The notes beneath the pieces are model-generated. The model made no database searches. It had not been told where the DNA came from and saw only the letters and a list, made by a program, of their open reading frames with translations. From Escherichia phage JLBYU60: 44,804 bases of DNA. The translations under genes were made by a program, and so were the position numbers. Shown piece after piece: positions 5,079 through 30,816 of this stretch. Location of the stretch: the sequence record NC_073052.1. One strand, given 5' to 3'. Every line of letters starts with the position of its first letter. Position 1 is the stretch's first letter.

Positions 5079-5843
5079 TTAGCGAGGAATGCCGCAAATC
5101 TCGTTGAGTGTTTTCACATCCAGCGCCACCGCCGTGGATTTTGGCTTGTCCGGGTACGGGATGAATTGCTCAACTTCAGGCCATGCCTTGATCAGCTTCT
5201 TATCGGTATTGTGCATATCCAGCACGCCGGTAACAGTTAGTTTGAACGCGTCATACTTAGCCCGCAACTCACGGCGGGCCTTGTCGTTACGGTCCAGGCG
5301 CTTGCAGAAATCGTGGTCCGCAGGGTAGTCTATGCGACCGCGTGGCTTATAGATCGGCAGCGATTTTCCGTCCTTGTCCACTTCACACACCGAAGCCAGC
5401 ATAACTTCCTCGAACCCCGGTACGATATCGCCGAGATCGGGAGATAGCTTATTCATGTATTTATATTCCCAGTATCCGCGATGTACGCGGTATTGGTAAC
5501 CGTCACCGCTCAAGGACAAGGTGCGAACGTTTCCGCCTGCGTTGATTTCGAAAGTGGCGTCGTAAACGCTGCCGATACCTTTCGGGCGGTCGGTGTTATA
5601 ACTATACGTCGCCTTGTTGGTGTATACGCAAACGCCGTACATCTGCGACGGGTCATCGCCGATTGCTTCGATGCGCGCAAGTAGCTCGGCGAACGTGCGA
5701 ATGCCTTCCGGCATACAGTCAAGCGTGATTGCGTACGCCAGATCGCGTGAGTCCATCATGATTTGTTTGGCTTCGGTTGCGATTTCGTGGTCGCGCAGGA
5801 TGTTAGCCAGAATCTGATTTTTAATGTCTTTCGTCAGTCTCAT
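5079..5843 (-). CDS. Hypothetical protein (accessory gene antisense to structural block)
   Basis: 254-aa ORF with ATG and RBS GAGGA; convergent with the spanin genes across a bidirectional terminator; no recognisable motifs. Confidence 0.6.
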   Translation of the reverse strand: MRLTKDIKNQILANILRDHEIATEAKQIMMDSRDLAYAITLDCMPEGIRTFAELLARIEAIGDDPSQMYGVCVYTNKATYSYNTDRPKGIGSVYDATFEINAGGNVRTLSLSGDGYQYRVHRGYWEYKYMNKLSPDLGDIVPGFEEVMLASVCEVDKDGKSLPIYKPRGRIDYPADHDFCKRLDRNDKARRELRAKYDAFKLTVTGVLDMHNTDKKLIKAWPEVEQFIPYPDKPKSTAVALDVKTLNEICGIPR

Positions 5844-24055: not shown

Positions 24056-24078
24056 GGGGCCGCACGGCCCCTTTTTTA
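24056..24078 (+). terminator. Rho-independent terminator after tail fibre gene
   Basis: GGGGCC-gcac-GGCCCC followed by TTTTTT. Confidence 0.8.
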
Positions 24079-24693: not shown

Positions 24694-25215
24694 TTATTTA
24701 AGTGCGCCAGTCACCAGTGTTTTTTCCATGTTACGGAAGTCTTCCGGCGTCATGAGGATTTTAGATCCGTCTTCGCCGGTGAGTACGACCATAGGCTGTA
24801 CGTCCTGATCTGCGATGCCAAAATTAGCGGCTTTAACCATCTTGCCCGCCGATGCAGAAGGACGCCACGTTCCGCCGGTGGAGATGGGACAGCCTTTGAG
24901 GCTGTCGAATTGTGCTGCCGTTGTATCGATCTGAATCTCGTCGTGCACGGTCATGTAAGACTCACCCAGCAGTGCGGCATATGCTACCAGGTCCACGATG
25001 TTATCTTCCTGGTGCTTACGGTGCTGGCGCACCAGCTTCAGGCAGATCAGGAAGGTCCAGGCTTCTTGCTCGGTAAGGTCGCGCCCGGTAAGCGCGTTAA
25101 ACACGGCGGCGACCTGTTTAGCGCTGCGTTCTTCTTTCGCGTTGTCATAGCCGTTTTCTTTTCCGCGCTGCTCCATAGTGGTGGCGGCGTTTTTGCAGTA
25201 TTCGTATGCTTTCAT
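24694..25215 (-). CDS. Hypothetical protein
   Basis: 173 aa from ATG 25215 with RBS AGGAG (six-frame ORF extends to 25290 without RBS); no motif identified. Confidence 0.5.
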   Translation of the reverse strand: MKAYEYCKNAATTMEQRGKENGYDNAKEERSAKQVAAVFNALTGRDLTEQEAWTFLICLKLVRQHRKHQEDNIVDLVAYAALLGESYMTVHDEIQIDTTAAQFDSLKGCPISTGGTWRPSASAGKMVKAANFGIADQDVQPMVVLTGEDGSKILMTPEDFRNMEKTLVTGALK

Positions 25216-25277
25216 GGTTTGTCTCCTTTTAGGGGAGGCAGTATTGCCTCCCGATGTGGTTAATATAGTTGGTTGCA

Positions 25278-25748
25278 TTATTGGTTGCAAGTGAATTTTG
25301 CAAGATTCACAGAATAAATATGCGGGACCAGTTCTTCACACGCCCGTTTGATGGCGGCGATGTTCTTCGCGCAGTCGTCAATGATGACCAGTTCGTTAAC
25401 TTCTGCATAGCACACCAGGCCAAATACGGAACGGGCCTTGTACTCTGGCGGCGGCGTGTCATCAAGCATATGGCGTAAGAACAGACGACCTTTCGGGAAT
25501 CTATCCAATTGCTCTTTCGTTGACTCCCAGCAATCTGACTGGCGGTTTGACAGGTACGCAATGTCGAAGCCCTGTTTAGCGTACATGCGCAATAACGGCA
25601 GCATGTCATAATTAATGTCTTCGCGGACGTGGGCCTTATGCCACTTCGCCCAAAACGTTGATTTAGTCTTGATCCCCGGAACTAGGTCGTCGCGCACACT
25701 GCTTGACCCGTTGATAACGCCATCTAAATCGCAAATCAGTAGTTTCAT
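25278..25748 (-). CDS. HAD-superfamily phosphatase (nucleotidase / polynucleotide phosphatase-like)
   Basis: 156 aa; HAD motif I LICDLDGV and motif IV VIIDD. Confidence 0.65.
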   Translation of the reverse strand: MKLLICDLDGVINGSSSVRDDLVPGIKTKSTFWAKWHKAHVREDINYDMLPLLRMYAKQGFDIAYLSNRQSDCWESTKEQLDRFPKGRLFLRHMLDDTPPPEYKARSVFGLVCYAEVNELVIIDDCAKNIAAIKRACEELVPHIYSVNLAKFTCNQ

Positions 25749-25922
25749 TTTAATTCCGCCATTAAATTTTCACGTACAATACGGGCCGAGAATGCGTCGC
25801 ACACAAGATGGCAACGCGCCGTCATGACAAGCCAGCCAGTTAGGTCAAGGCCCAGCAATTGATGAGGTTGGCTTGCGCGCCTTACTTTATTTCCAGGGAA
25901 AACCTGGTAGCGTTTAATTATT

Positions 25923-26432
25923 TCATCCACGACGCGAGGACTTCGGTCGACGACTAAGATATTCATTTAATTCACCTTCGCTCATTATTTCGATTTGTGC
26001 GCTGCCGTTTGGCGGCACTTCTTCAAAGATTATCAATTGCTGGCACTTGTTGTTACTCGGCCCGACCTTACCGGTGACGGCGTGTATAAACCGGATCCGC
26101 CAGTCCAGCAAAATAATCAGGTTTGCAGTCTTCCTGGCCAGCTTCGCCCACTTCGTCGACGTGTCCTGATTCAGTAGCATGACCGTCCGGCGTCCGTGCG
26201 CTGCGCACTCTACCCACGGCAGCGGATCGGAATACGGCGGATTGCACCACTTCCACCCTTTCAACTCGGACCAGTCCACATCAAGCGCGCTGTGTTCCGC
26301 CGTGAAGTAACGCGGTAGCAGATGATTGGCGTCGCTTGCCGCCATATCGTAACGGAATAGGTATTTCCGACGAAGCGGTTTAAATAAAGCTGGCGGCGTG
26401 CGCCAGCTATCTTTTTGCTCATTCTCCGTCAT
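25923..26432 (-). CDS. DNA N6-adenine methyltransferase (phage Dam family)
   Basis: 169 aa; N-terminal WRTPPALF and catalytic WCNPPYS (NPPY motif IV), characteristic of small phage Dam methyltransferases. Confidence 0.8.
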   Translation of the reverse strand: MTENEQKDSWRTPPALFKPLRRKYLFRYDMAASDANHLLPRYFTAEHSALDVDWSELKGWKWCNPPYSDPLPWVECAAHGRRTVMLLNQDTSTKWAKLARKTANLIILLDWRIRFIHAVTGKVGPSNNKCQQLIIFEEVPPNGSAQIEIMSEGELNEYLSRRPKSSRRG

Positions 26433-26877
26433 AGTCGGGATCTATCGCATACAGGGCGGTTTTCTTGCCACTGGATAGCACGCGTTGGACTCGGGATAGC
26501 TCCGCCCTACTGAGCGGTCGGCTATCGGAATAGTAGCTGCCGTTTGCACGCCACGCTATACGCACCAGTCCTTTCCGCGGGATCGAAGACTGGCTGCCCT
26601 TCGGACGGACGTACTCCTCGGCCAGTTTGCAATGCTCGCGCAGACCTTCGGCAGTGATGCGGTTTAGCGCGACGGTGGTTGTGTACCCGGTGCGCTGCAT
26701 AATACCCATCAACTCATACAGCAGTTCGAAGCGCTCCTCTAACTCCTTGCGCATCTTTTCCTCGCCTTCATAGCTCGCCATGTAGGTATCCGCCAGCGCG
26801 TTCGCCCGTTCGACCTGTTCGCGGGCTTCGAGGCATTGCGCGGCCCAGTAATTTTTCTCTTCTTGTAAAATTTTCAT
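26419..26877 (-). CDS. Hypothetical protein
   Basis: 152-aa ORF; two TTGGTTGCA motifs and a sigma70-like promoter upstream; overlaps Dam start by 14 nt. Confidence 0.5.
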   Translation of the reverse strand: MKILQEEKNYWAAQCLEAREQVERANALADTYMASYEGEEKMRKELEERFELLYELMGIMQRTGYTTTVALNRITAEGLREHCKLAEEYVRPKGSQSSIPRKGLVRIAWRANGSYYSDSRPLSRAELSRVQRVLSSGKKTALYAIDPDYDGE

Positions 26878-26958
26878 CGTGTTGTCTCCAGGTATTAAAA
26901 AAGGCGTCCAAACCGGACACCCTTAAGATAATGCAACCAATATGATTATGCAACCAAT

Positions 26959-27282
26959 TTACGCATAAAAGTTCGGGTCGCGTGCGACGTCTACCAGGTA
27001 AAGGTTGCTTATGCGGTTGCCGTAGTGCCCTGGAGTGCGCTGGCGGCACACAACGGCGAAGCCTGGAGGGATTGTATTGCCCGTCTCAATAATCCACGCC
27101 ACGCGTGCGCCAGACAGCGTCTTTCCGTTGCATTCGATACGTGTTCCGCCGTCGGCAGTATTGATGTTGCCAATCTTGCAGCCGGTGGACTTCAGACGGA
27201 TGACTCCGGTTTTGCTGTCGTAGGTGAATAGCTGGTTAGTCATTGCGACCGAAAAATCGATGGTTTCGTATGTAGCGTTCAT
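26959..27282 (-). CDS. HNH_3 (AP2-like) family protein, possible small homing endonuclease
   Basis: 107 aa with RBS GAGGAA; architecture NGKT...ARVAWII...IPPGF...GHYGNRISNLYLV parallels HNH_3 endonucleases though the His-Asn core is shortened. Confidence 0.5.
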   Translation of the reverse strand: MNATYETIDFSVAMTNQLFTYDSKTGVIRLKSTGCKIGNINTADGGTRIECNGKTLSGARVAWIIETGNTIPPGFAVVCRQRTPGHYGNRISNLYLVDVARDPNFYA

Positions 27283-27989
27283 TTTAAATTTTCCTCGTTA
27301 ACCGCTATCGCGAAGCCGCGCGGAGTGAGTGAGCGGATTAATTTTGTACGAGCGGATTTACCACCGAGGCGACTATACTGTTTCGAGTACCCTTTTTCAA
27401 CGAAAACAGGTTTCTTCTCTGGCATACGGAAGCCGTTGCCGGTCCATAAGCAAGTCAGCTTCGGATATGAATCGCGGGCGTTGATGTATTCCGGGAAGAG
27501 CGGGTGTACGTCATCCTCCGGCAGATACCCCCCATACTCCCACGGGTCGAACGAGTGATCCGGCTTGCGCCACTGGGTGGAAAGCACACTGCGCGGATTC
27601 TCAATCATATATGGCACTTCGAAGAAGTCACCCAGGTAAGCGGCGATCTTCGCGGTGCGCACCGCCTTAAGCTGAAAGGCTGGGTCTTTTGCACGCTTGC
27701 GCGGGAAAGCTGGCGCACCGCTCACCGCCAGATCCGTGCACGGCGGGAACGCATATATGATATCCGGAGTACCGAAATCGCCATTCATCGCACGGTCTAC
27801 AAAGTCCAGATCGATAAACTCATTGCGATACCGGATTCCGCGACCATAAATCCGGTAGTCAAGGTAAGACCCGTGATCGGCTTCGGAGTAGTTGAAGCAA
27901 TAACACTTATGCCCCATCTCGGCCGCACGCTCAATCATCAAGCCGCTGCCGTCAAACAGTGACCAGATTGTCATTTTAGCAATAGTCAT
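27279..27989 (-). CDS. Compact C5-methyltransferase-like protein (putative DNA cytosine-5 modification enzyme)
   Basis: 236 aa; motif I-like SLFDGSG, motif IV-like DIIYAFPPCTDLAVSGA (catalytic Pro-Cys), motif VI-like YMIENPRS, motif IX-like SLTPRG; no room for a normal target-recognition domain; start ATGA-overlaps the SNF2 helicase stop. Confidence 0.6.
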   Translation of the reverse strand: MTIAKMTIWSLFDGSGLMIERAAEMGHKCYCFNYSEADHGSYLDYRIYGRGIRYRNEFIDLDFVDRAMNGDFGTPDIIYAFPPCTDLAVSGAPAFPRKRAKDPAFQLKAVRTAKIAAYLGDFFEVPYMIENPRSVLSTQWRKPDHSFDPWEYGGYLPEDDVHPLFPEYINARDSYPKLTCLWTGNGFRMPEKKPVFVEKGYSKQYSRLGGKSARTKLIRSLTPRGFAIAVNEENLK

Positions 27990-29446
27990 TTGCGCGCCTT
28001 TTTAGCTTTCATGTATTCCATCAAGTCGTCCTGGATATCTCGCTTACTGTCGCGACGCTCGGCGACCAATTCGTCCAGTGTCCCGCGCGCCTGGATAATG
28101 TAGACGAATACCGGTCGAGGGTGTCCGGCCTGCATCTGGCGAACCGGCCCGATACGTTCAACGATCTGCGAAAAGTGCTCAAAGTTCCAGGTGTCGGAGA
28201 AGATTGCCAGGTGATGACCGCCGTCCTGCAAGTTAAGGCCGTGGCCCGCCGATGCCGGGTGTGCAAACATGATGGGGATCTCGCCCCTGTTCCACGCTTC
28301 CATATCCTTATTGCCCTGCTTACCTTTACCCAACGCAACGCCGTGCGGAAATTTCTTCTTAAGACGTGCCAGGTCATGCTTATACTGATACGCAACGAGC
28401 AACGGCGCGCCGTTCAACTCCTCCACGATACTTTCCAGTGCGTCCAGCTTCGCGTCGTGAATCTTCACCCATTCGTCGGTGCGCTCGCCGTCTTCGTCGA
28501 CCTTATACACGGCCCCGGAAGCAAGCTGAAGGCACTTAATAGTCTTCGAAGCAGCGTTCGCCGCCTCCACCGTTCCGCTTTCCAGTTCGGCAAATAGCTC
28601 CGCTTCGAATTGGTCATAAATCTTGCGGGCTTTTTTCGGCAGGTCCACAACAACCGGCGTATAGATTGGCTTGTCACACCCGAAGTATTCAGCCGCATCA
28701 ACGGTTAGCGACACGTCGGACAGTCGTTGTTGTATTTCTTTCTCGGAGTTCTTAAGCGGGGCGTGCTGCATCGTGAAGCTGCCAGGCTTAACCGGCTTGC
28801 TAATAAACCAGCGGTCTGTGAATGCCTTATAACTACTGCCGAGGCGTTCGCCACCGTCGACAAACCACGTCTGACCCCACAGGTCTTTCAGTCCGTTTGG
28901 TGCGGGTGTGCCAGTCAGGTTAATCCAGCGCTTGACGTGCTTATGTGCGATCGCTGCCAGCGCACGGGCGCGCTTACTTCCCTGCTTGCTTCTATAGCCT
29001 TTCAGCTTAGTGGATTCATCGGCAACCACGACCGTAAAGGGCCACTCGTCGCCGCAATACTCAACAAGCCACTCAACTACATCATAGTTAATACAAACCA
29101 CGTTAGCGTCGCTCTCAAGCGCAGCGATGCGGTCCTTCTCTGGCCCAGTGCCGTCTACTACCAGCAAGGCTGGGAAGCGCCATTTCTCCTGTTCCGGGGG
29201 CCATGTACCGGACGCAACGCGCAGCGGGGCCAGCACCAGTACGCGGTCATCCTGGTTGGACAGGATGCCAGTCTGGAACATTTTATTCAGCGCCCACATG
29301 GTCGCGCCGGTTTTACCCGACCCCATTGTCGCCCAAATATTGCAGCGCTTATGCTCGAGGATGAACGCGGTTATCAACTTCTGATATTCGCGGCGTCGGA
29401 ATCGTGCCATTTCTTTATTCCGCCTTTTTCCAGACTTCGGTTTCAC
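27986..29446 (-). CDS. SNF2-family ATP-dependent helicase
   Basis: Walker A MGSGKTG, DExx box VVADESTKL, SNF2 signature LTGTPAPNG, C-terminal helicase motifs (FAHPASAGHGLNLQDG...); start either GTG 29446 (RBS AAGGAA) or ATG 29410. Confidence 0.8.
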   Translation of the reverse strand: MKPKSGKRRNKEMARFRRREYQKLITAFILEHKRCNIWATMGSGKTGATMWALNKMFQTGILSNQDDRVLVLAPLRVASGTWPPEQEKWRFPALLVVDGTGPEKDRIAALESDANVVCINYDVVEWLVEYCGDEWPFTVVVADESTKLKGYRSKQGSKRARALAAIAHKHVKRWINLTGTPAPNGLKDLWGQTWFVDGGERLGSSYKAFTDRWFISKPVKPGSFTMQHAPLKNSEKEIQQRLSDVSLTVDAAEYFGCDKPIYTPVVVDLPKKARKIYDQFEAELFAELESGTVEAANAASKTIKCLQLASGAVYKVDEDGERTDEWVKIHDAKLDALESIVEELNGAPLLVAYQYKHDLARLKKKFPHGVALGKGKQGNKDMEAWNRGEIPIMFAHPASAGHGLNLQDGGHHLAIFSDTWNFEHFSQIVERIGPVRQMQAGHPRPVFVYIIQARGTLDELVAERRDSKRDIQDDLMEYMKAKKARK

Positions 29447-29633
29447 TGTTCCAGTTCCTTTTTGTAGCGTCGTAGTTGGTGGCGTGTCCGATGTGCACCC
29501 CGGTAGCCCGGAAGCTCTTAAATTTTTGCCAGCACACCGTCAACGGCAGCGGATCATTCATGCCCGCGATAAACCATACGCGATCGCCCGGTTTACATTC
29601 GCCCAGCTTGGTGAGTCGGTAATGTTCTTTCAT
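29415..29633 (-). CDS. Hypothetical protein
   Basis: 72 aa from ATG 29633 with RBS GGGAGA preceded by a terminator-like hairpin; no motifs. Confidence 0.45.
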   Translation of the reverse strand: MKEHYRLTKLGECKPGDRVWFIAGMNDPLPLTVCWQKFKSFRATGVHIGHATNYDATKRNWNSETEVWKKAE

Positions 29634-29645
29634 CGTCATGTCTCC

Positions 29646-29670
29646 CAAAAATGGCGGGACAAGCCCGCCG
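29646..29670 (-). terminator. Terminator-like hairpin on minus strand
   Basis: Minus strand reads GGCGGGC-ttgt-CCCGCC then ATTTTT, immediately followed by RBS GGGAGA and ATG of the 29415-29633 gene. Confidence 0.5.
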
Positions 29671-29890: not shown

Positions 29891-30169
29891 TTAAGCGACC
29901 AAATCAGCAACCAATAAATCGCAGTCGACTATGTTGTCAATAACGCGAACGTTAGCACCGCGGCGGGCCATCCGCTCATGTTCGCGTACCTGGTGCGGCT
30001 TCGGTTTTCCACCGGGGCGCTTCACTTCGACGAACACTATTTTGCCGTTGATGATGATAATCAGGTCGGGCGCACCTGCGCGCCCCTCCCATGCCAGTTT
30101 TCGGCAGAATCCGCCTACCTCTTTCACCCGTCGCATCAGGTGACTTTGTATCTTGCCTTCTGGTGTCAT
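29891..30169 (-). CDS. VRR-NUC domain nuclease
   Basis: 92 aa from ATG 30169 with RBS AAGGA; core GAPDLIIIINGKIVFVEVKRPGGKPKPHQ typical of VRR-NUC (PD-(D/E)xK) proteins; start ATGA-overlaps HNH gene stop. Confidence 0.65.
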   Translation of the reverse strand: MTPEGKIQSHLMRRVKEVGGFCRKLAWEGRAGAPDLIIIINGKIVFVEVKRPGGKPKPHQVREHERMARRGANVRVIDNIVDCDLLVADLVA

Positions 30170-30768
30170 TGTCGGCTTTTCCTTACGGCAGCGATGGCAG
30201 GTCCGATAAACTTCTTCATTTCGTCCGGGGTAAACCGATCCCCGCGGGCTATGTTGCACTCTACGCAGCACGGCACGCAGTTATCTTTCGTATGGCCTAC
30301 TGCGTTGTCGAGTCGGTCCGCGCCATTGTCGCCGGTGAATCCGCAGTATGCGCACGGCTGAGAAGTAAGGCGCAGCACGTCCTCTGTAGTAAGGTCGGTG
30401 TTTAGCCCCTTCCTTTCGTCTGCCTTACGGTACTGAAAGAGTTTATAGTAAGCGCGGATCTCTGGTGTCCGGTGGTTGTACTCGCGGCGTGACTTATTAG
30501 CGCACGATCGGCATTCTTTACGAATATGTGACCCGTTTGCTTGGCTTCCTGGCCGGAAGTTTTCCGGCGTGAGCGGCTTGCGCTCACCGCACGTACGACA
30601 TGTTACGATCTCCCCGGTGTACTCTCGCCATACTTCTCTCGGCGGCGCGCCTCTTTCCTTATCCCGTCTCTCTTTCTTATATGCCGCCATGCATTTGGCG
30701 CACCACGACTGGCCCTTGTTGAAAGCGGACTCATCTTTACCCGTATTACAACGCCCACAATGTTTCAT
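30166..30768 (-). CDS. HNH endonuclease with N-terminal zinc-ribbon repeats
   Basis: 200 aa from ATG 30768 with RBS GAGGTG; C-terminal HNH core CAYCGFTGDNGADRLDNAVGHTKDNCVPCCVECN; two CxxC...CxxC modules at the N-terminus. Confidence 0.7.
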   Translation of the reverse strand: MKHCGRCNTGKDESAFNKGQSWCAKCMAAYKKERRDKERGAPPREVWREYTGEIVTCRTCGERKPLTPENFRPGSQANGSHIRKECRSCANKSRREYNHRTPEIRAYYKLFQYRKADERKGLNTDLTTEDVLRLTSQPCAYCGFTGDNGADRLDNAVGHTKDNCVPCCVECNIARGDRFTPDEMKKFIGPAIAAVRKSRQ

Positions 30769-30816
30769 ATACACCTCGAAAAAGAAAACGCCAGACAATA
30801 ATGCCCAACGTTTCCG

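What the first reader, a model, noticed from the sequence alone, without database searches (positions are those of the whole stretch)
27279..29446. Translationally coupled SNF2 helicase and minimal C5-methyltransferase-like gene, next to Dam: candidate phage DNA modification / anti-restriction module
The 236-aa protein at 27279-27989 carries C5-methyltransferase motifs I (SLFDGSG), IV (FPPCTDLAVSGA), VI (IENP) and IX-like (SLTPRG) but is far shorter than standard C5 enzymes and has no room for a normal target-recognition domain. Its start overlaps the stop of an SNF2-family ATPase (ATGA), implying co-expression and possibly a complex. A Dam-family N6-adenine methyltransferase (25923-26432), HAD phosphatase and an HNH_3-like gene lie within 2 kb. 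SNF2 ATPase plus C5 methyltransferase pairings occur in bacterial defence islands; in a virulent phage such a pair could protect phage DNA by cytosine modification or remodel host DNA. The minimal enzyme may be sequence-nonspecific, use the helicase for targeting, or catalyse a different C5 chemistry.
Basis: partly seen in the sequence, partly recalled or inferred. Interest (0 to 1): 0.75.

Follow-up and report, generated by a model that had tools for sequence, protein, structure and literature searches.

The report
Known phage Dcm-like cytosine methyltransferase gene
The 236-residue gene is an ordinary member of a very common, already studied family of small phage DNA cytosine-C5 methyltransferases, and its position next to the SNF2 helicase reflects tight operon packing rather than a two-protein machine.

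Summary
The window is a Dhillonvirus-type coliphage, about 90% identical to PNS1, Envy, SECphi18 and SO-1. The ORFs, motifs and ATGA overlap are all present as described.

The 236-aa protein gets no Pfam, NCBIfam or PDB sequence hit. Three results still place it among C5 methyltransferases:
- It matches PHROG 757 "DNA methyltransferase" (E 7e-84).
- Its model (pLDDT 91.5) matches DNMT3A/3B catalytic domains.
- Homologues 62-63% identical pass the PF00145 threshold.

It is 54% identical to the T1-like phage "Dcm". That protein's gene length and residue numbering (C82, E128, K175, K176) match phage K42 Dcm. A preprint shows K42 Dcm alone puts 5mC on DNA in E. coli and triggers retron Ec86/Eco1.

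The family occurs in 1510 of 50,697 phage records, mostly without SNF2. The SNF2 family occurs in 1585 records, many without Dcm. Jerseyvirus AG11 has SNF2 but no Dcm. T1-like U136B has Dcm but no SNF2. One Dhillonvirus carries only a 61-aa Dcm remnant.

ATGA overlaps occur at four junctions of this operon. The SNF2-partner idea is therefore not supported.

Verdict: already known, low interest. The open point is the true target sequence of this enzyme, which has almost no target-recognition domain (TRD).

The parts
27279..27989 (-). Dcm-like compact DNA cytosine-C5 methyltransferase, 236 aa. Residues: motif I F12-D-G14-S-G16, catalytic PPC with C84, ENP with E130, Y175-P-K177, and RSLTPRG plus the C-terminal helix.
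   Evidence: PHROG 757 at E 7e-84. AlphaFold2 model pLDDT 91.5, pTM 0.90. Foldseek matches to DNMT3A/3B catalytic domains at E about 1e-6, prob 1.0. 54% identity, E 1e-87, to the T1-like Dcm with K42 numbering. 100% identical to the annotated 'C-5 cytosine-specific DNA methylase' of phage UDS3lw.
27986..29410 (-). SNF2/Rad54-family SF2 ATPase, 474 aa from ATG 29410. The open frame extends to GTG 29446. It is a core gene of the replication/recombination module, not a dedicated partner of the methyltransferase.
   Evidence: PF00176 at E 4.9e-11. PHROG 62 'DNA helicase' at E 4e-157. PDB sequence hits to yeast Snf2 and the Sulfolobus SNF2/Rad54 core. Homologues in 1585 phage records, including Jerseyvirus, APSE, Xfas53 and Streptococcus, Staphylococcus and Bacteroides phages.
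26959..27282 (-). 107-aa HNH-type (homing) endonuclease-like gene. Its ATG overlaps the methyltransferase stop codon.
   Evidence: PHROG 99 at E 3e-16, no Pfam hit. ATGA overlap. Annotated as HNH or homing endonuclease in relatives.
29415..29648 (-). Small protein of unknown function (PHROG 9291). It is the first gene after a terminator-like hairpin and ends 4 nt before the SNF2 ATG.
29653..29669 (-). Terminator-like hairpin GGCGGGCTTGTCCCGCC followed by ATTTTT, upstream of the p77a-SNF2-Dcm-HNH gene block.
   Evidence: Consensus scan only. The sequence is visible.
25923..26432 (-). Phage Dam-family N6-adenine DNA methyltransferase, 169 aa.
   Evidence: PF05869 at E 6.9e-36.

Best explanation
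Window 27279-27989 (-) encodes a stand-alone, SAM-dependent DNA cytosine-C5 methyltransferase. It belongs to the widespread phage 'Dcm-like' family (PHROG 757).

Inferred mechanism. This is the classical C5-methyltransferase chemistry, inferred from conserved residues and fold.
- The N-terminal Rossmann half (FDGSG) binds S-adenosylmethionine.
- Cys84 of the PPC motif attacks C6 of a flipped-out cytosine.
- Glu130 of the ENP motif protonates N3, and the methyl group goes to C5.
- The target-recognition part is cut down to a few dozen residues of loops, as in DNMT3. Lys177 lies at the position the K42 authors identified as substrate-binding.

Shown for a 54%-identical ortholog (phage K42).
- The enzyme needs no phage partner.
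- It produces 5mC on DNA in E. coli.
- It is dispensable for plaque formation.
- Its activity on retron Ec86/Eco1 msDNA is what triggers that abortive-infection system.

Inferred here.
- The gene is expressed from the leftward replication and DNA-metabolism operon and methylates replicating phage DNA, and host DNA as well.
- The probable benefit is protection from cytosine-sensitive restriction in some hosts. The cost is sensitivity to retron Eco1.
- The neighbouring SNF2 ATPase is a core replication/recombination translocase that travels with the DNA polymerase I and VRR-NUC genes. The methyltransferase and the HNH gene are accessory genes packed against it.
For: Identity of the protein.
- PHROG 757 match at E 7e-84.
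- Confident model matching DNMT3A/3B methyltransferase domains and viral 'DNA-cytosine methylase' models at TM up to 0.86.
- Homologues at 62-63% identity exceed the PF00145 gathering score over motifs I-IV.
- C84, E130 and P132 are invariant, and F81, P82, N131, R141 and K177 nearly invariant, in 72 diverse members.

Link to the characterised enzyme.
- The T1-like protein at L063 is 54% identical (E 1e-87).
- Counted from its second Met, L063 is a 711-bp gene (as annotated for FritzSarasin) with C82, E128, K175 and K176.
- These are exactly the gene length and residues reported for K42 Dcm.
- Later papers restate Dcm as the Eco1 trigger.

Independence from SNF2.

Generic overlaps in the operon.
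Against: - The window protein itself gets no Pfam, NCBIfam or PDB sequence hit, even at E<=10.
- Profile-to-single-sequence comparisons with a classical enzyme are weak, at E about 0.05-0.08.
- I matched K42 Dcm by gene length and residue numbering through a T1-like relative. I did not compare the K42 sequence itself.
- The second lysine of the K42 pair is Leu178 here. That position varies within the family.
- No methylation data exist for this phage.
- The CCWGG specificity was assumed by analogy in the K42 work, not mapped.
- A benefit against restriction is not shown. Dhillonviruses were sensitive to the restriction systems tested.
- Methyltransferase and SNF2 genes abut in two lineages in opposite orders.
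- A different C5 methyltransferase occupies the same slot in phage XY2.
- Distant relatives are fused to helicase domains.
- Some functional link with SNF2 therefore cannot be excluded.
Confidence: 0.85

Rival explanations
1. The SNF2 ATPase and the minimal methyltransferase form a functional pair. The translocase would target, load or move an enzyme that cannot recognise sequence by itself, giving a phage DNA-modification or anti-restriction module.
For: - The two genes overlap by 4 nt here.
- They abut in all Dhillonvirus loci. They also abut, in the opposite order, in a second 44-kb Kagunavirus-like lineage.
- In Kagunavirus XY2 a different small PF00145 methyltransferase sits in the same slot before SNF2.
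- BFVD holds 1100-1400-aa proteins of uncultured phages in which a domain 21-25% identical to this protein is part of a larger protein described as 'Helicase/UvrB, N-terminal'.
Against: - 52 of 79 viral contigs with a close homologue have no SNF2 within 6 kb.
- The complete T1-like genome U136B has the methyltransferase and no SNF2 homologue at E<0.01. Its nearby 'helicase' is DUF3987.
- About 520 Klebsiella phage records hold the methyltransferase, against 29 with SNF2.
- Jerseyvirus AG11 has the 66%-identical SNF2 and no methyltransferase anywhere in its genome.
- Shigella phage 1b keeps SNF2 with only a 186-nt dcm remnant.
- K42 Dcm acts alone from a plasmid.
- ATGA overlaps are common in this operon.
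- The DISARM DrmD model scores 23 bits against a cut-off of 950.
Confidence: 0.07
2. The enzyme performs, or starts, a modification other than simple methylation. Examples are transfer of another group to C5, or 5mC made as a precursor for further modification by other phage genes such as Nmad5 or the DUF6378 protein.
For: - The family is too divergent for Pfam to detect in this protein.
- The phage also carries an Nmad5 gene and a DUF6378 gene, labelled 'nucleotide modification associated' in relatives.
- DUF6378 lies between Dam and Dcm, with one further ORF before Dcm, in lambdoid prophage nin regions.
Against: - LC-MS of DNA from cells expressing the K42 ortholog showed 5mC.
- No dioxygenase or glycosyltransferase is annotated in the closest complete genome.
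- The SAM-binding and catalytic motifs are the standard ones.
- Dhillonviruses lack the broad restriction resistance typical of hypermodified genomes.
Confidence: 0.04
3. The enzyme is active, but protecting phage DNA from restriction is not what maintains it. It might instead act on host DNA or on phage gene expression or packaging, or it may be a nearly neutral mobile accessory gene spread by neighbouring homing endonucleases.
For: - The gene is dispensable in K42 and lost in Shigella phage 1b.
- Truncated versions are seen in metagenomes: P0004, P0009 and P0015.
- It sits beside HNH genes here and in relatives.
- About 60% identity is shared among unrelated siphoviruses and myoviruses, and an unbootstrapped tree does not follow phage backbones.
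- For the related Drexlerviridae, no simple link between methyltransferase genes and restriction resistance was found.
Against: - About 151 records carry the methyltransferase at >=90% identity, against about 156 carrying SNF2 at >=90% identity.
- The catalytic residues are under strong conservation across about 2000 clusters. That argues for a selected enzymatic function.
Confidence: 0.1

Closest known systems
Phage K42 / KarlJaspers-type Dcm (Drexlerviridae), the trigger of retron Ec86/Eco1 (bioRxiv 10.1101/2023.08.16.553469)
   Same: - Same length (236 aa).
- 54% identity over the full length to the T1-like protein that carries the K42 numbering.
- Same catalytic Cys, Glu and first Lys.
- Same DNMT3A-like predicted fold.
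- Both are annotated 'Dcm-like C5 cytosine methyltransferase' in BASEL phages.
   Different: - The second Lys of the K175/K176 pair is Leu178 here.
- The genomic context differs. In T1-like phages there is no SNF2 neighbour.
- Activity of the Dhillonvirus protein itself has not been measured.
DNMT3A/DNMT3B catalytic domains (PDB 4u7t, 6w89, 6kda and others)
   Same: Best structural matches (E about 1e-6, prob 1.0, TM 0.45-0.54). Both are C5-methyltransferase folds with a very small target-recognition region.
   Different: - Only 13-17% sequence identity.
- DNMT3 works as a DNMT3A/3L tetramer with regulatory domains.
- The phage protein is about 45 residues shorter than the DNMT3 catalytic domain.
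E. coli Dcm (M.EcoKDcm, CCWGG) and classical bacterial type II C5 methyltransferases such as M.HhaI (PF00145)
   Same: Same chemistry and same order of motifs I, IV and VI. Some family members pass the PF00145 threshold over motifs I-IV.
   Different: - From my own knowledge, the classical enzymes are 320-470 aa with a target-recognition domain of 80 residues or more.
- The window protein gets no PF00145 or NCBIfam hit at all.
- The name 'Dcm' is by analogy, and the CCWGG specificity is unverified.
SNF2 helicase plus methyltransferase defence systems (e.g. DISARM DrmD with DrmMII)
   Same: An SNF2-family ATPase gene lies next to a cytosine methyltransferase gene.
   Different: - The DrmD model scores 23 bits against a cut-off of 950.
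- No other DISARM components are present.
- The SNF2 gene belongs to a phage PolA/VRR-NUC replication module.
- The two genes are not co-inherited across phages.

Membership tests
Phage Dcm-like compact C5 methyltransferases (PHROG 757; K42 Dcm type) | Full-length significant sequence similarity to family members, including the characterised type | tested here: met
   PHROG 757 at E 7e-84 over residues 2-234. 54% identity, E 1e-87, to the T1-like Dcm whose length and C82/E128/K175/K176 numbering equal those of K42 Dcm.
Phage Dcm-like compact C5 methyltransferases (PHROG 757; K42 Dcm type) | Single-domain protein of about 210-260 aa with a catalytic PPC Cys, an ENP Glu and a Y-P-K lysine | tested here: met
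   C84, E130 and K177 are present. C84, E130 and P132 are invariant and K177 is at least 90% conserved in 72 diverse members. The second Lys (K176 in K42) is Leu178 here, a variable position.
Phage Dcm-like compact C5 methyltransferases (PHROG 757; K42 Dcm type) | Forms 5-methylcytosine in DNA without a phage partner and activates retron Ec86/Eco1 | not testable with these tools
   Shown only for the K42 ortholog.
Classical C-5 cytosine-specific DNA methylase (Pfam PF00145) | Score above the Pfam gathering threshold | tested here: not met
   No hit for the window protein even at E<=10. Three homologues 62-63% identical to it score 24.7-28.5 bits against a cut-off of 22, over motifs I-IV only.
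Classical C-5 cytosine-specific DNA methylase (Pfam PF00145) | C5-methyltransferase fold with the catalytic loop | tested here: met
   The pLDDT 91.5 model matches DNMT3A/3B and DNMT1 methyltransferase domains at prob 1.0. It also matches many viral cytosine methyltransferase models.
Classical C-5 cytosine-specific DNA methylase (Pfam PF00145) | A separate target-recognition domain of roughly 80 or more residues between motifs VIII and IX | tested here: not met
   Only about 85 residues separate ENP (130-132) from RSLTPRG (219-225). If Y175-P-K177 is motif VIII, as the K42 authors' structural superposition implies, about 35 residues remain. The motif VIII assignment is an inference.
Host-type Dcm (M.EcoKDcm equivalog) | Match to a curated NCBIfam cytosine methylase model | tested here: not met
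   No NCBIfam family at E<=1.
SNF2 ATPase plus methyltransferase two-gene system (DISARM-like or a new phage module) | The two genes are co-inherited across genomes | tested here: not met
   Methyltransferase without SNF2: 52 of 79 contigs and the whole U136B genome. SNF2 without methyltransferase: the whole AG11 genome and Streptococcus, Staphylococcus and Bacteroides phages. A dcm remnant with intact SNF2 occurs in Shigella phage 1b.
SNF2 ATPase plus methyltransferase two-gene system (DISARM-like or a new phage module) | The SNF2 protein matches the system-specific helicase model | tested here: not met
   DISARM DrmD scores 23.3 bits against a cut-off of 950. ZorD scores 10.3 against 1500.
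SNF2 ATPase plus methyltransferase two-gene system (DISARM-like or a new phage module) | Physical or functional dependence of one protein on the other | not testable with these tools
   Indirect evidence only: K42 Dcm works alone in E. coli.

The most novel reading that the evidence does not exclude
The repeated placement of small C5 methyltransferases directly against the same SNF2 translocase could reflect real cooperation. The placements are downstream of SNF2 in Dhillonvirus, upstream in Kagunavirus-like phages, and a different PF00145 enzyme in the same slot in XY2. Uncultured phages also carry larger proteins that combine a related methyltransferase domain with a region described as helicase-like. 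Under this reading, a methyltransferase with almost no target-recognition domain and short or relaxed specificity (not CCWGG) would be carried along replicating DNA by the translocase.
Probability: 0.08. Interest if true: 0.55.

Novelty: already known. Interest (0 to 1): 0.12.

Why it matters
As a discovery it matters little. The gene is annotated as a C5 cytosine methylase in about 150 Dhillonvirus genomes, and its family has a published activity and a published role as the retron Ec86/Eco1 trigger.

Practically, it predicts that this phage is sensed by retron Eco1, and that dcm-null escapers will be viable.

One question remains worth asking. No one has determined which sequence this very small enzyme methylates. 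The K42 work assumed CCWGG by analogy with host Dcm, yet it saw little 5mC on msDNA in a dcm+ host without the phage enzyme. A direct specificity map would say which restriction enzymes the family can block.

Tried and rejected
- Sequence searches of the 236-aa protein and of a 39-member profile against Pfam, NCBIfam and PDB found nothing useful. The only hit was a chance match to kinase ToxD at E 0.5-1.
- hhalign of the 72-member family profile against M.HhaI and against the XY2 methyltransferase aligned the PC motif only weakly, at E 0.05-0.08. I did not use either result as evidence.
- Longer family members (294-414 aa) were scanned for fused domains, and none had a Pfam domain.
- I tested whether the T1-like 'putative helicase' about 750 nt downstream of Dcm in U136B is an SNF2 protein. 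It is DUF3987 and unrelated.
- I asked whether CCWGG counts reveal the specificity. The 159 sites are 2.3 times the dinucleotide-shuffle mean. Under a third-order Markov model the ratio is 0.97, so the excess comes from tetranucleotide usage and says nothing about the enzyme.
- A neighbour-joining tree of methyltransferases from different phage groups is star-like and has no bootstrap support. It suggests, but does not prove, horizontal exchange.
- A paper on phage helicases that trigger retron Eco11 concerns UvsW/D10-type helicases, not this SNF2 protein.
Full report
**What the window is.** The 6 kb around the finding is about 90% identical at the nucleotide level to Escherichia phages PNS1, Envy, Sloth and SECphi18 and to Sodalis phage SO-1, all of the genus Dhillonvirus. 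135 phage records cover at least 80% of that stretch. The whole window aligns in blocks of 90-94% identity with phage UDS3lw. The finding therefore lies in a well-sampled group of virulent coliphages.

**Checking the observation.** The ORF at 27279-27989 (-) encodes 236 aa with SLFDGSG, FPPCTDLAVSGA, IENP and SLTPRG. Its ATG overlaps the TGA of the upstream SNF2 ORF, and its own TGA overlaps the ATG of the 107-aa gene downstream.
- The SNF2 protein matches PF00176 (E 4.9e-11), and the gene at 25923-26432 matches the phage Dam family PF05869 (E 6.9e-36).
- The 107-aa protein matches PHROG 99 'HNH endonuclease'.
- The 156-aa protein has only sub-threshold HAD hits, plus a DLDGV motif.
- The SNF2 gene probably starts at ATG 29410 (474 aa), as annotated in relatives, not at GTG 29446.

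**The overlap is not specific to this pair.** In the leftward gene string from the DNA polymerase gene to the gene at 24076, ATGA overlaps occur at four junctions: EndoVII-like/VRR-NUC, SNF2/Dcm, Dcm/HNH and Ksap1-like/HAD. Two more junctions overlap by 14 nt or more. Tight coupling is how this operon is built, so it does not single out SNF2 and the methyltransferase as partners.

**What the 236-aa protein is.** Direct sequence searches fail. There is no Pfam hit even at E<=10, no NCBIfam hit at E<=1, and no meaningful PDB sequence hit, either alone or as a profile. Other evidence is clear.
- It matches PHROG 757 'DNA methyltransferase' at E 7e-84.
- It has at least 2880 homologues among 90%-identity clusters and 1963 clusters at 50% identity. 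Almost all are 210-260 aa.
- Three homologues 62-63% identical to it exceed the PF00145 gathering score over motifs I-IV.
- An AlphaFold2 model built on 39 homologues is confident (pLDDT 91.5, pTM 0.90).
- Its best matches among solved structures are the catalytic domains of DNMT3A, DNMT3B and DNMT1 (E about 1e-6, probability 1.0, TM 0.45-0.54).
- Among predicted viral structures it matches 'DNA-cytosine methylase' models at TM up to 0.86.
- In 72 diverse members, C84, E130 and P132 are invariant. F81, P82, N131, R141 and K177 are conserved in at least 90%.

It is a C5-methyltransferase with its catalytic apparatus intact.

**The compactness is real.** About 85 residues separate ENP from RSLTPRG. 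If Y175-P-K177 corresponds to motif VIII, only about 35 residues sit where classical enzymes carry a target-recognition domain of 80 residues or more. That motif VIII assignment is an inference from the superposition reported for the K42 ortholog. The figure for classical enzymes is from my own knowledge of M.HhaI-type enzymes.

**The family has been studied.** A preprint on retron Ec86 (10.1101/2023.08.16.553469) isolated escapers of the T1-like phage K42, which is 95% identical to BASEL phage KarlJaspers.
- All four escapers had lesions in or just upstream of a 711-bp gene called dcm.
- The authors modelled the protein, superposed it on DNMT3A, and named C82, E128, K175 and K176 as the catalytic and substrate-binding residues.
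- They showed by LC-MS that the wild-type protein, but not the quadruple mutant, raises 5mC on msDNA in E. coli. Expression of the protein alone activates the retron.
- Later papers cite this as established.

The T1-like protein at locus L063 is 98% identical in DNA to the 'Dcm-like C5 cytosine methyltransferase' of BASEL phage FritzSarasin. Counted from its second Met, L063 is a 711-bp gene (as annotated for FritzSarasin) with Cys at 82, Glu at 128 and Lys-Lys at 175-176. The window protein is 54% identical to it over its full length (E 1e-87). The window gene is therefore an ortholog of a characterised enzyme. One caveat is that I linked it to K42 through numbering and gene length, not through the K42 sequence itself.

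**Is SNF2 its partner? The distribution says no.**
- The methyltransferase occurs in 1510 of 50,697 phage records. These include Dhillonvirus, T1-like Drexlerviridae, about 520 Klebsiella phages, rV5-like, PVP-SE1-like and Krischvirus myoviruses, and phage 7-11. It also occurs on a 121-kb viral contig (L028) and in lambdoid prophage nin regions.
- Of 79 viral contigs with a close homologue, 27 have SNF2 within 6 kb and 52 do not.
- The complete genome of the T1-like phage U136B has the methyltransferase (60% identity) and no SNF2 homologue at E<0.01. The 'helicase' about 750 nt downstream of it is a DUF3987 protein.
- The SNF2 family is in 1585 phage records, including Jerseyvirus, APSE, Xylella Xfas53 and several hundred Streptococcus, Staphylococcus and Bacteroides phages.
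- The complete Jerseyvirus AG11 genome has a 66%-identical SNF2 next to its polymerase and VRR-NUC genes. It has no methyltransferase homologue anywhere.
- Within Dhillonvirus, Shigella phage 1b retains the SNF2 gene followed by a 186-nt remnant of dcm.
- The K42 enzyme works when expressed alone.
- The DISARM DrmD model scores 23 bits against a cut-off of 950.

**What keeps the pairing idea alive, weakly.**
- In a second 44-kb lineage (Kagunavirus-like) the same methyltransferase family lies immediately upstream of SNF2 rather than downstream.
- In Kagunavirus XY2 that slot holds a different 265-aa PF00145 methyltransferase with no significant BLASTP similarity to this protein.
- BFVD contains 1100-1400-aa proteins of uncultured phages in which a domain 21-25% identical to this protein is part of a larger protein described as 'Helicase/UvrB, N-terminal'.

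The simpler reading is that the border of the conserved PolA/VRR-NUC/SNF2 module is a place where accessory DNA-metabolism genes and homing endonucleases accumulate. HNH genes flank it here and in relatives. Independent recruitment next to one translocase is still worth recording as the most novel reading left open.

**Function for the phage.** Protection from cytosine-sensitive restriction is the natural inference, but it is not shown.
- In the BASEL study, Dhillonviruses were more sensitive to type I and II systems than the base-modified Queuovirinae. For the related Drexlerviridae, no simple link between methyltransferase genes and restriction resistance was found.
- The gene is dispensable.
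- The documented effect is a cost: it triggers retron Eco1.
- The target sequence is open. The K42 authors assumed CCWGG by analogy with host Dcm and showed that a CCTGG site in the msDNA stem matters. They also saw little 5mC on msDNA in a dcm+ strain without the phage enzyme, and they mention toxicity of the enzyme itself.
- The window has 159 CCWGG sites. Their abundance is explained by tetranucleotide usage (ratio 0.97 under a third-order Markov model) and is uninformative.

**Verdict.** The SNF2 partnership, the alternative chemistry and the novelty are not supported. This is an already known gene of an already characterised family, and interest is low.

Noticed in passing
window 25745-25966 (-): This 73-aa gene lies between Dam and the HAD phosphatase, the position of Ksap1 of SECphi18. 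Ksap1 is the small protein sensed by the Klebsiella Avs2 defence protein (PMC11564622). It is only 50-58% identical to most Dhillonvirus copies but 100% identical to one viral contig, so it is a fast-varying gene.
   Followed up: partly
window 5079-5843 (-): A lone minus-strand gene inside the plus-strand head-gene block encodes an Nmad5 protein (PF18757, E 7.6e-59). In other Dhillonviruses a single Lys-to-Glu change in Nmad5 lets the phage escape the Tmn defence system. Its biochemical function is unknown.
   Followed up: partly
window 24694-25290 (-); locus L061 4611-6744: The DUF6378 protein, labelled 'nucleotide modification associated' in relatives, lies near Dam and Dcm here. In lambdoid prophage nin regions the gene order is Dam, DUF6378, one ORF, Dcm, NinG, RusA, Q. 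This suggests a recurring Dam/DUF6378/Dcm grouping.
   Followed up: partly
locus L082 2711-3508 (Escherichia phage XY2, Kagunavirus): A different 265-aa C5 methyltransferase occupies the slot just upstream of the orthologous SNF2 gene. Its PF00145 match (E 1e-21) covers only the motif IV-VIII region, and it has no significant BLASTP similarity to the window protein.
   Followed up: partly
locus L084 2989-3174 (Shigella phage 1b, Dhillonvirus): The dcm gene is reduced to a 186-nt C-terminal remnant that still overlaps the helicase stop codon. This is a natural loss of the methyltransferase with SNF2 intact.
   Followed up: yes
BFVD entries A0A6J5SE15 (1397 aa) and A0A6J5NPY6 (1126 aa): These large proteins of uncultured phages contain a domain 21-25% identical to the window methyltransferase (TM about 0.64). 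One is described as 'Helicase/UvrB, N-terminal', so methyltransferase-helicase fusions may exist. The sequences could not be retrieved here.
   Followed up: no
whole window: CTTGG/CCAAG is among the most under-represented 5-mers: 17 seen against 49 expected under a third-order Markov model, rank 1021-1022 of 1024. CCWGG is at expectation. From my own knowledge, this resembles the bias attributed to very-short-patch repair in E. coli.
   Followed up: no
window 26927-26958 (-) and about 26890-26920 (-): The 81-nt gap between the HNH gene and the next gene holds two copies of ATTGGTTGCAT(A/T)ATC, 17 nt apart. They are followed by a weak hairpin with a T-run (GTGTCCGGTTTGGACGCCTTTTTT). This could be a regulatory site or a terminator. 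It was seen by eye in the sequence printed.
   Followed up: no
window 30166-30798 (-): The 210-aa endonuclease VII/HNH-like gene (PHROG 1035) is absent from the otherwise collinear phage UDS3lw, where 648 nt are replaced by about 190 nt. It is also absent from several viral contigs, so it behaves as a mobile insertion between the polymerase and VRR-NUC genes.
   Followed up: partly
window 26419-26877 (-): This 152-aa protein matches PHROG 10530, labelled 'DNA ligase' (E 1e-89). It has no Pfam or NCBIfam support and is far too short for a ligase, so the label looks unreliable.
   Followed up: no
GenBank records MG065648, MG065646, MG065650 and MG065636 ('Campylobacter phage' A144, D1, B15, A16a): These records encode close homologues of coliphage genes. 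A144 is 88.5% identical in DNA to this window. D1, B15 and A16a match only at protein level (43-53% identity to the methyltransferase) and resemble rV5-like or 50-kb coliphage genomes in size. The host labels may be wrong.
   Followed up: no
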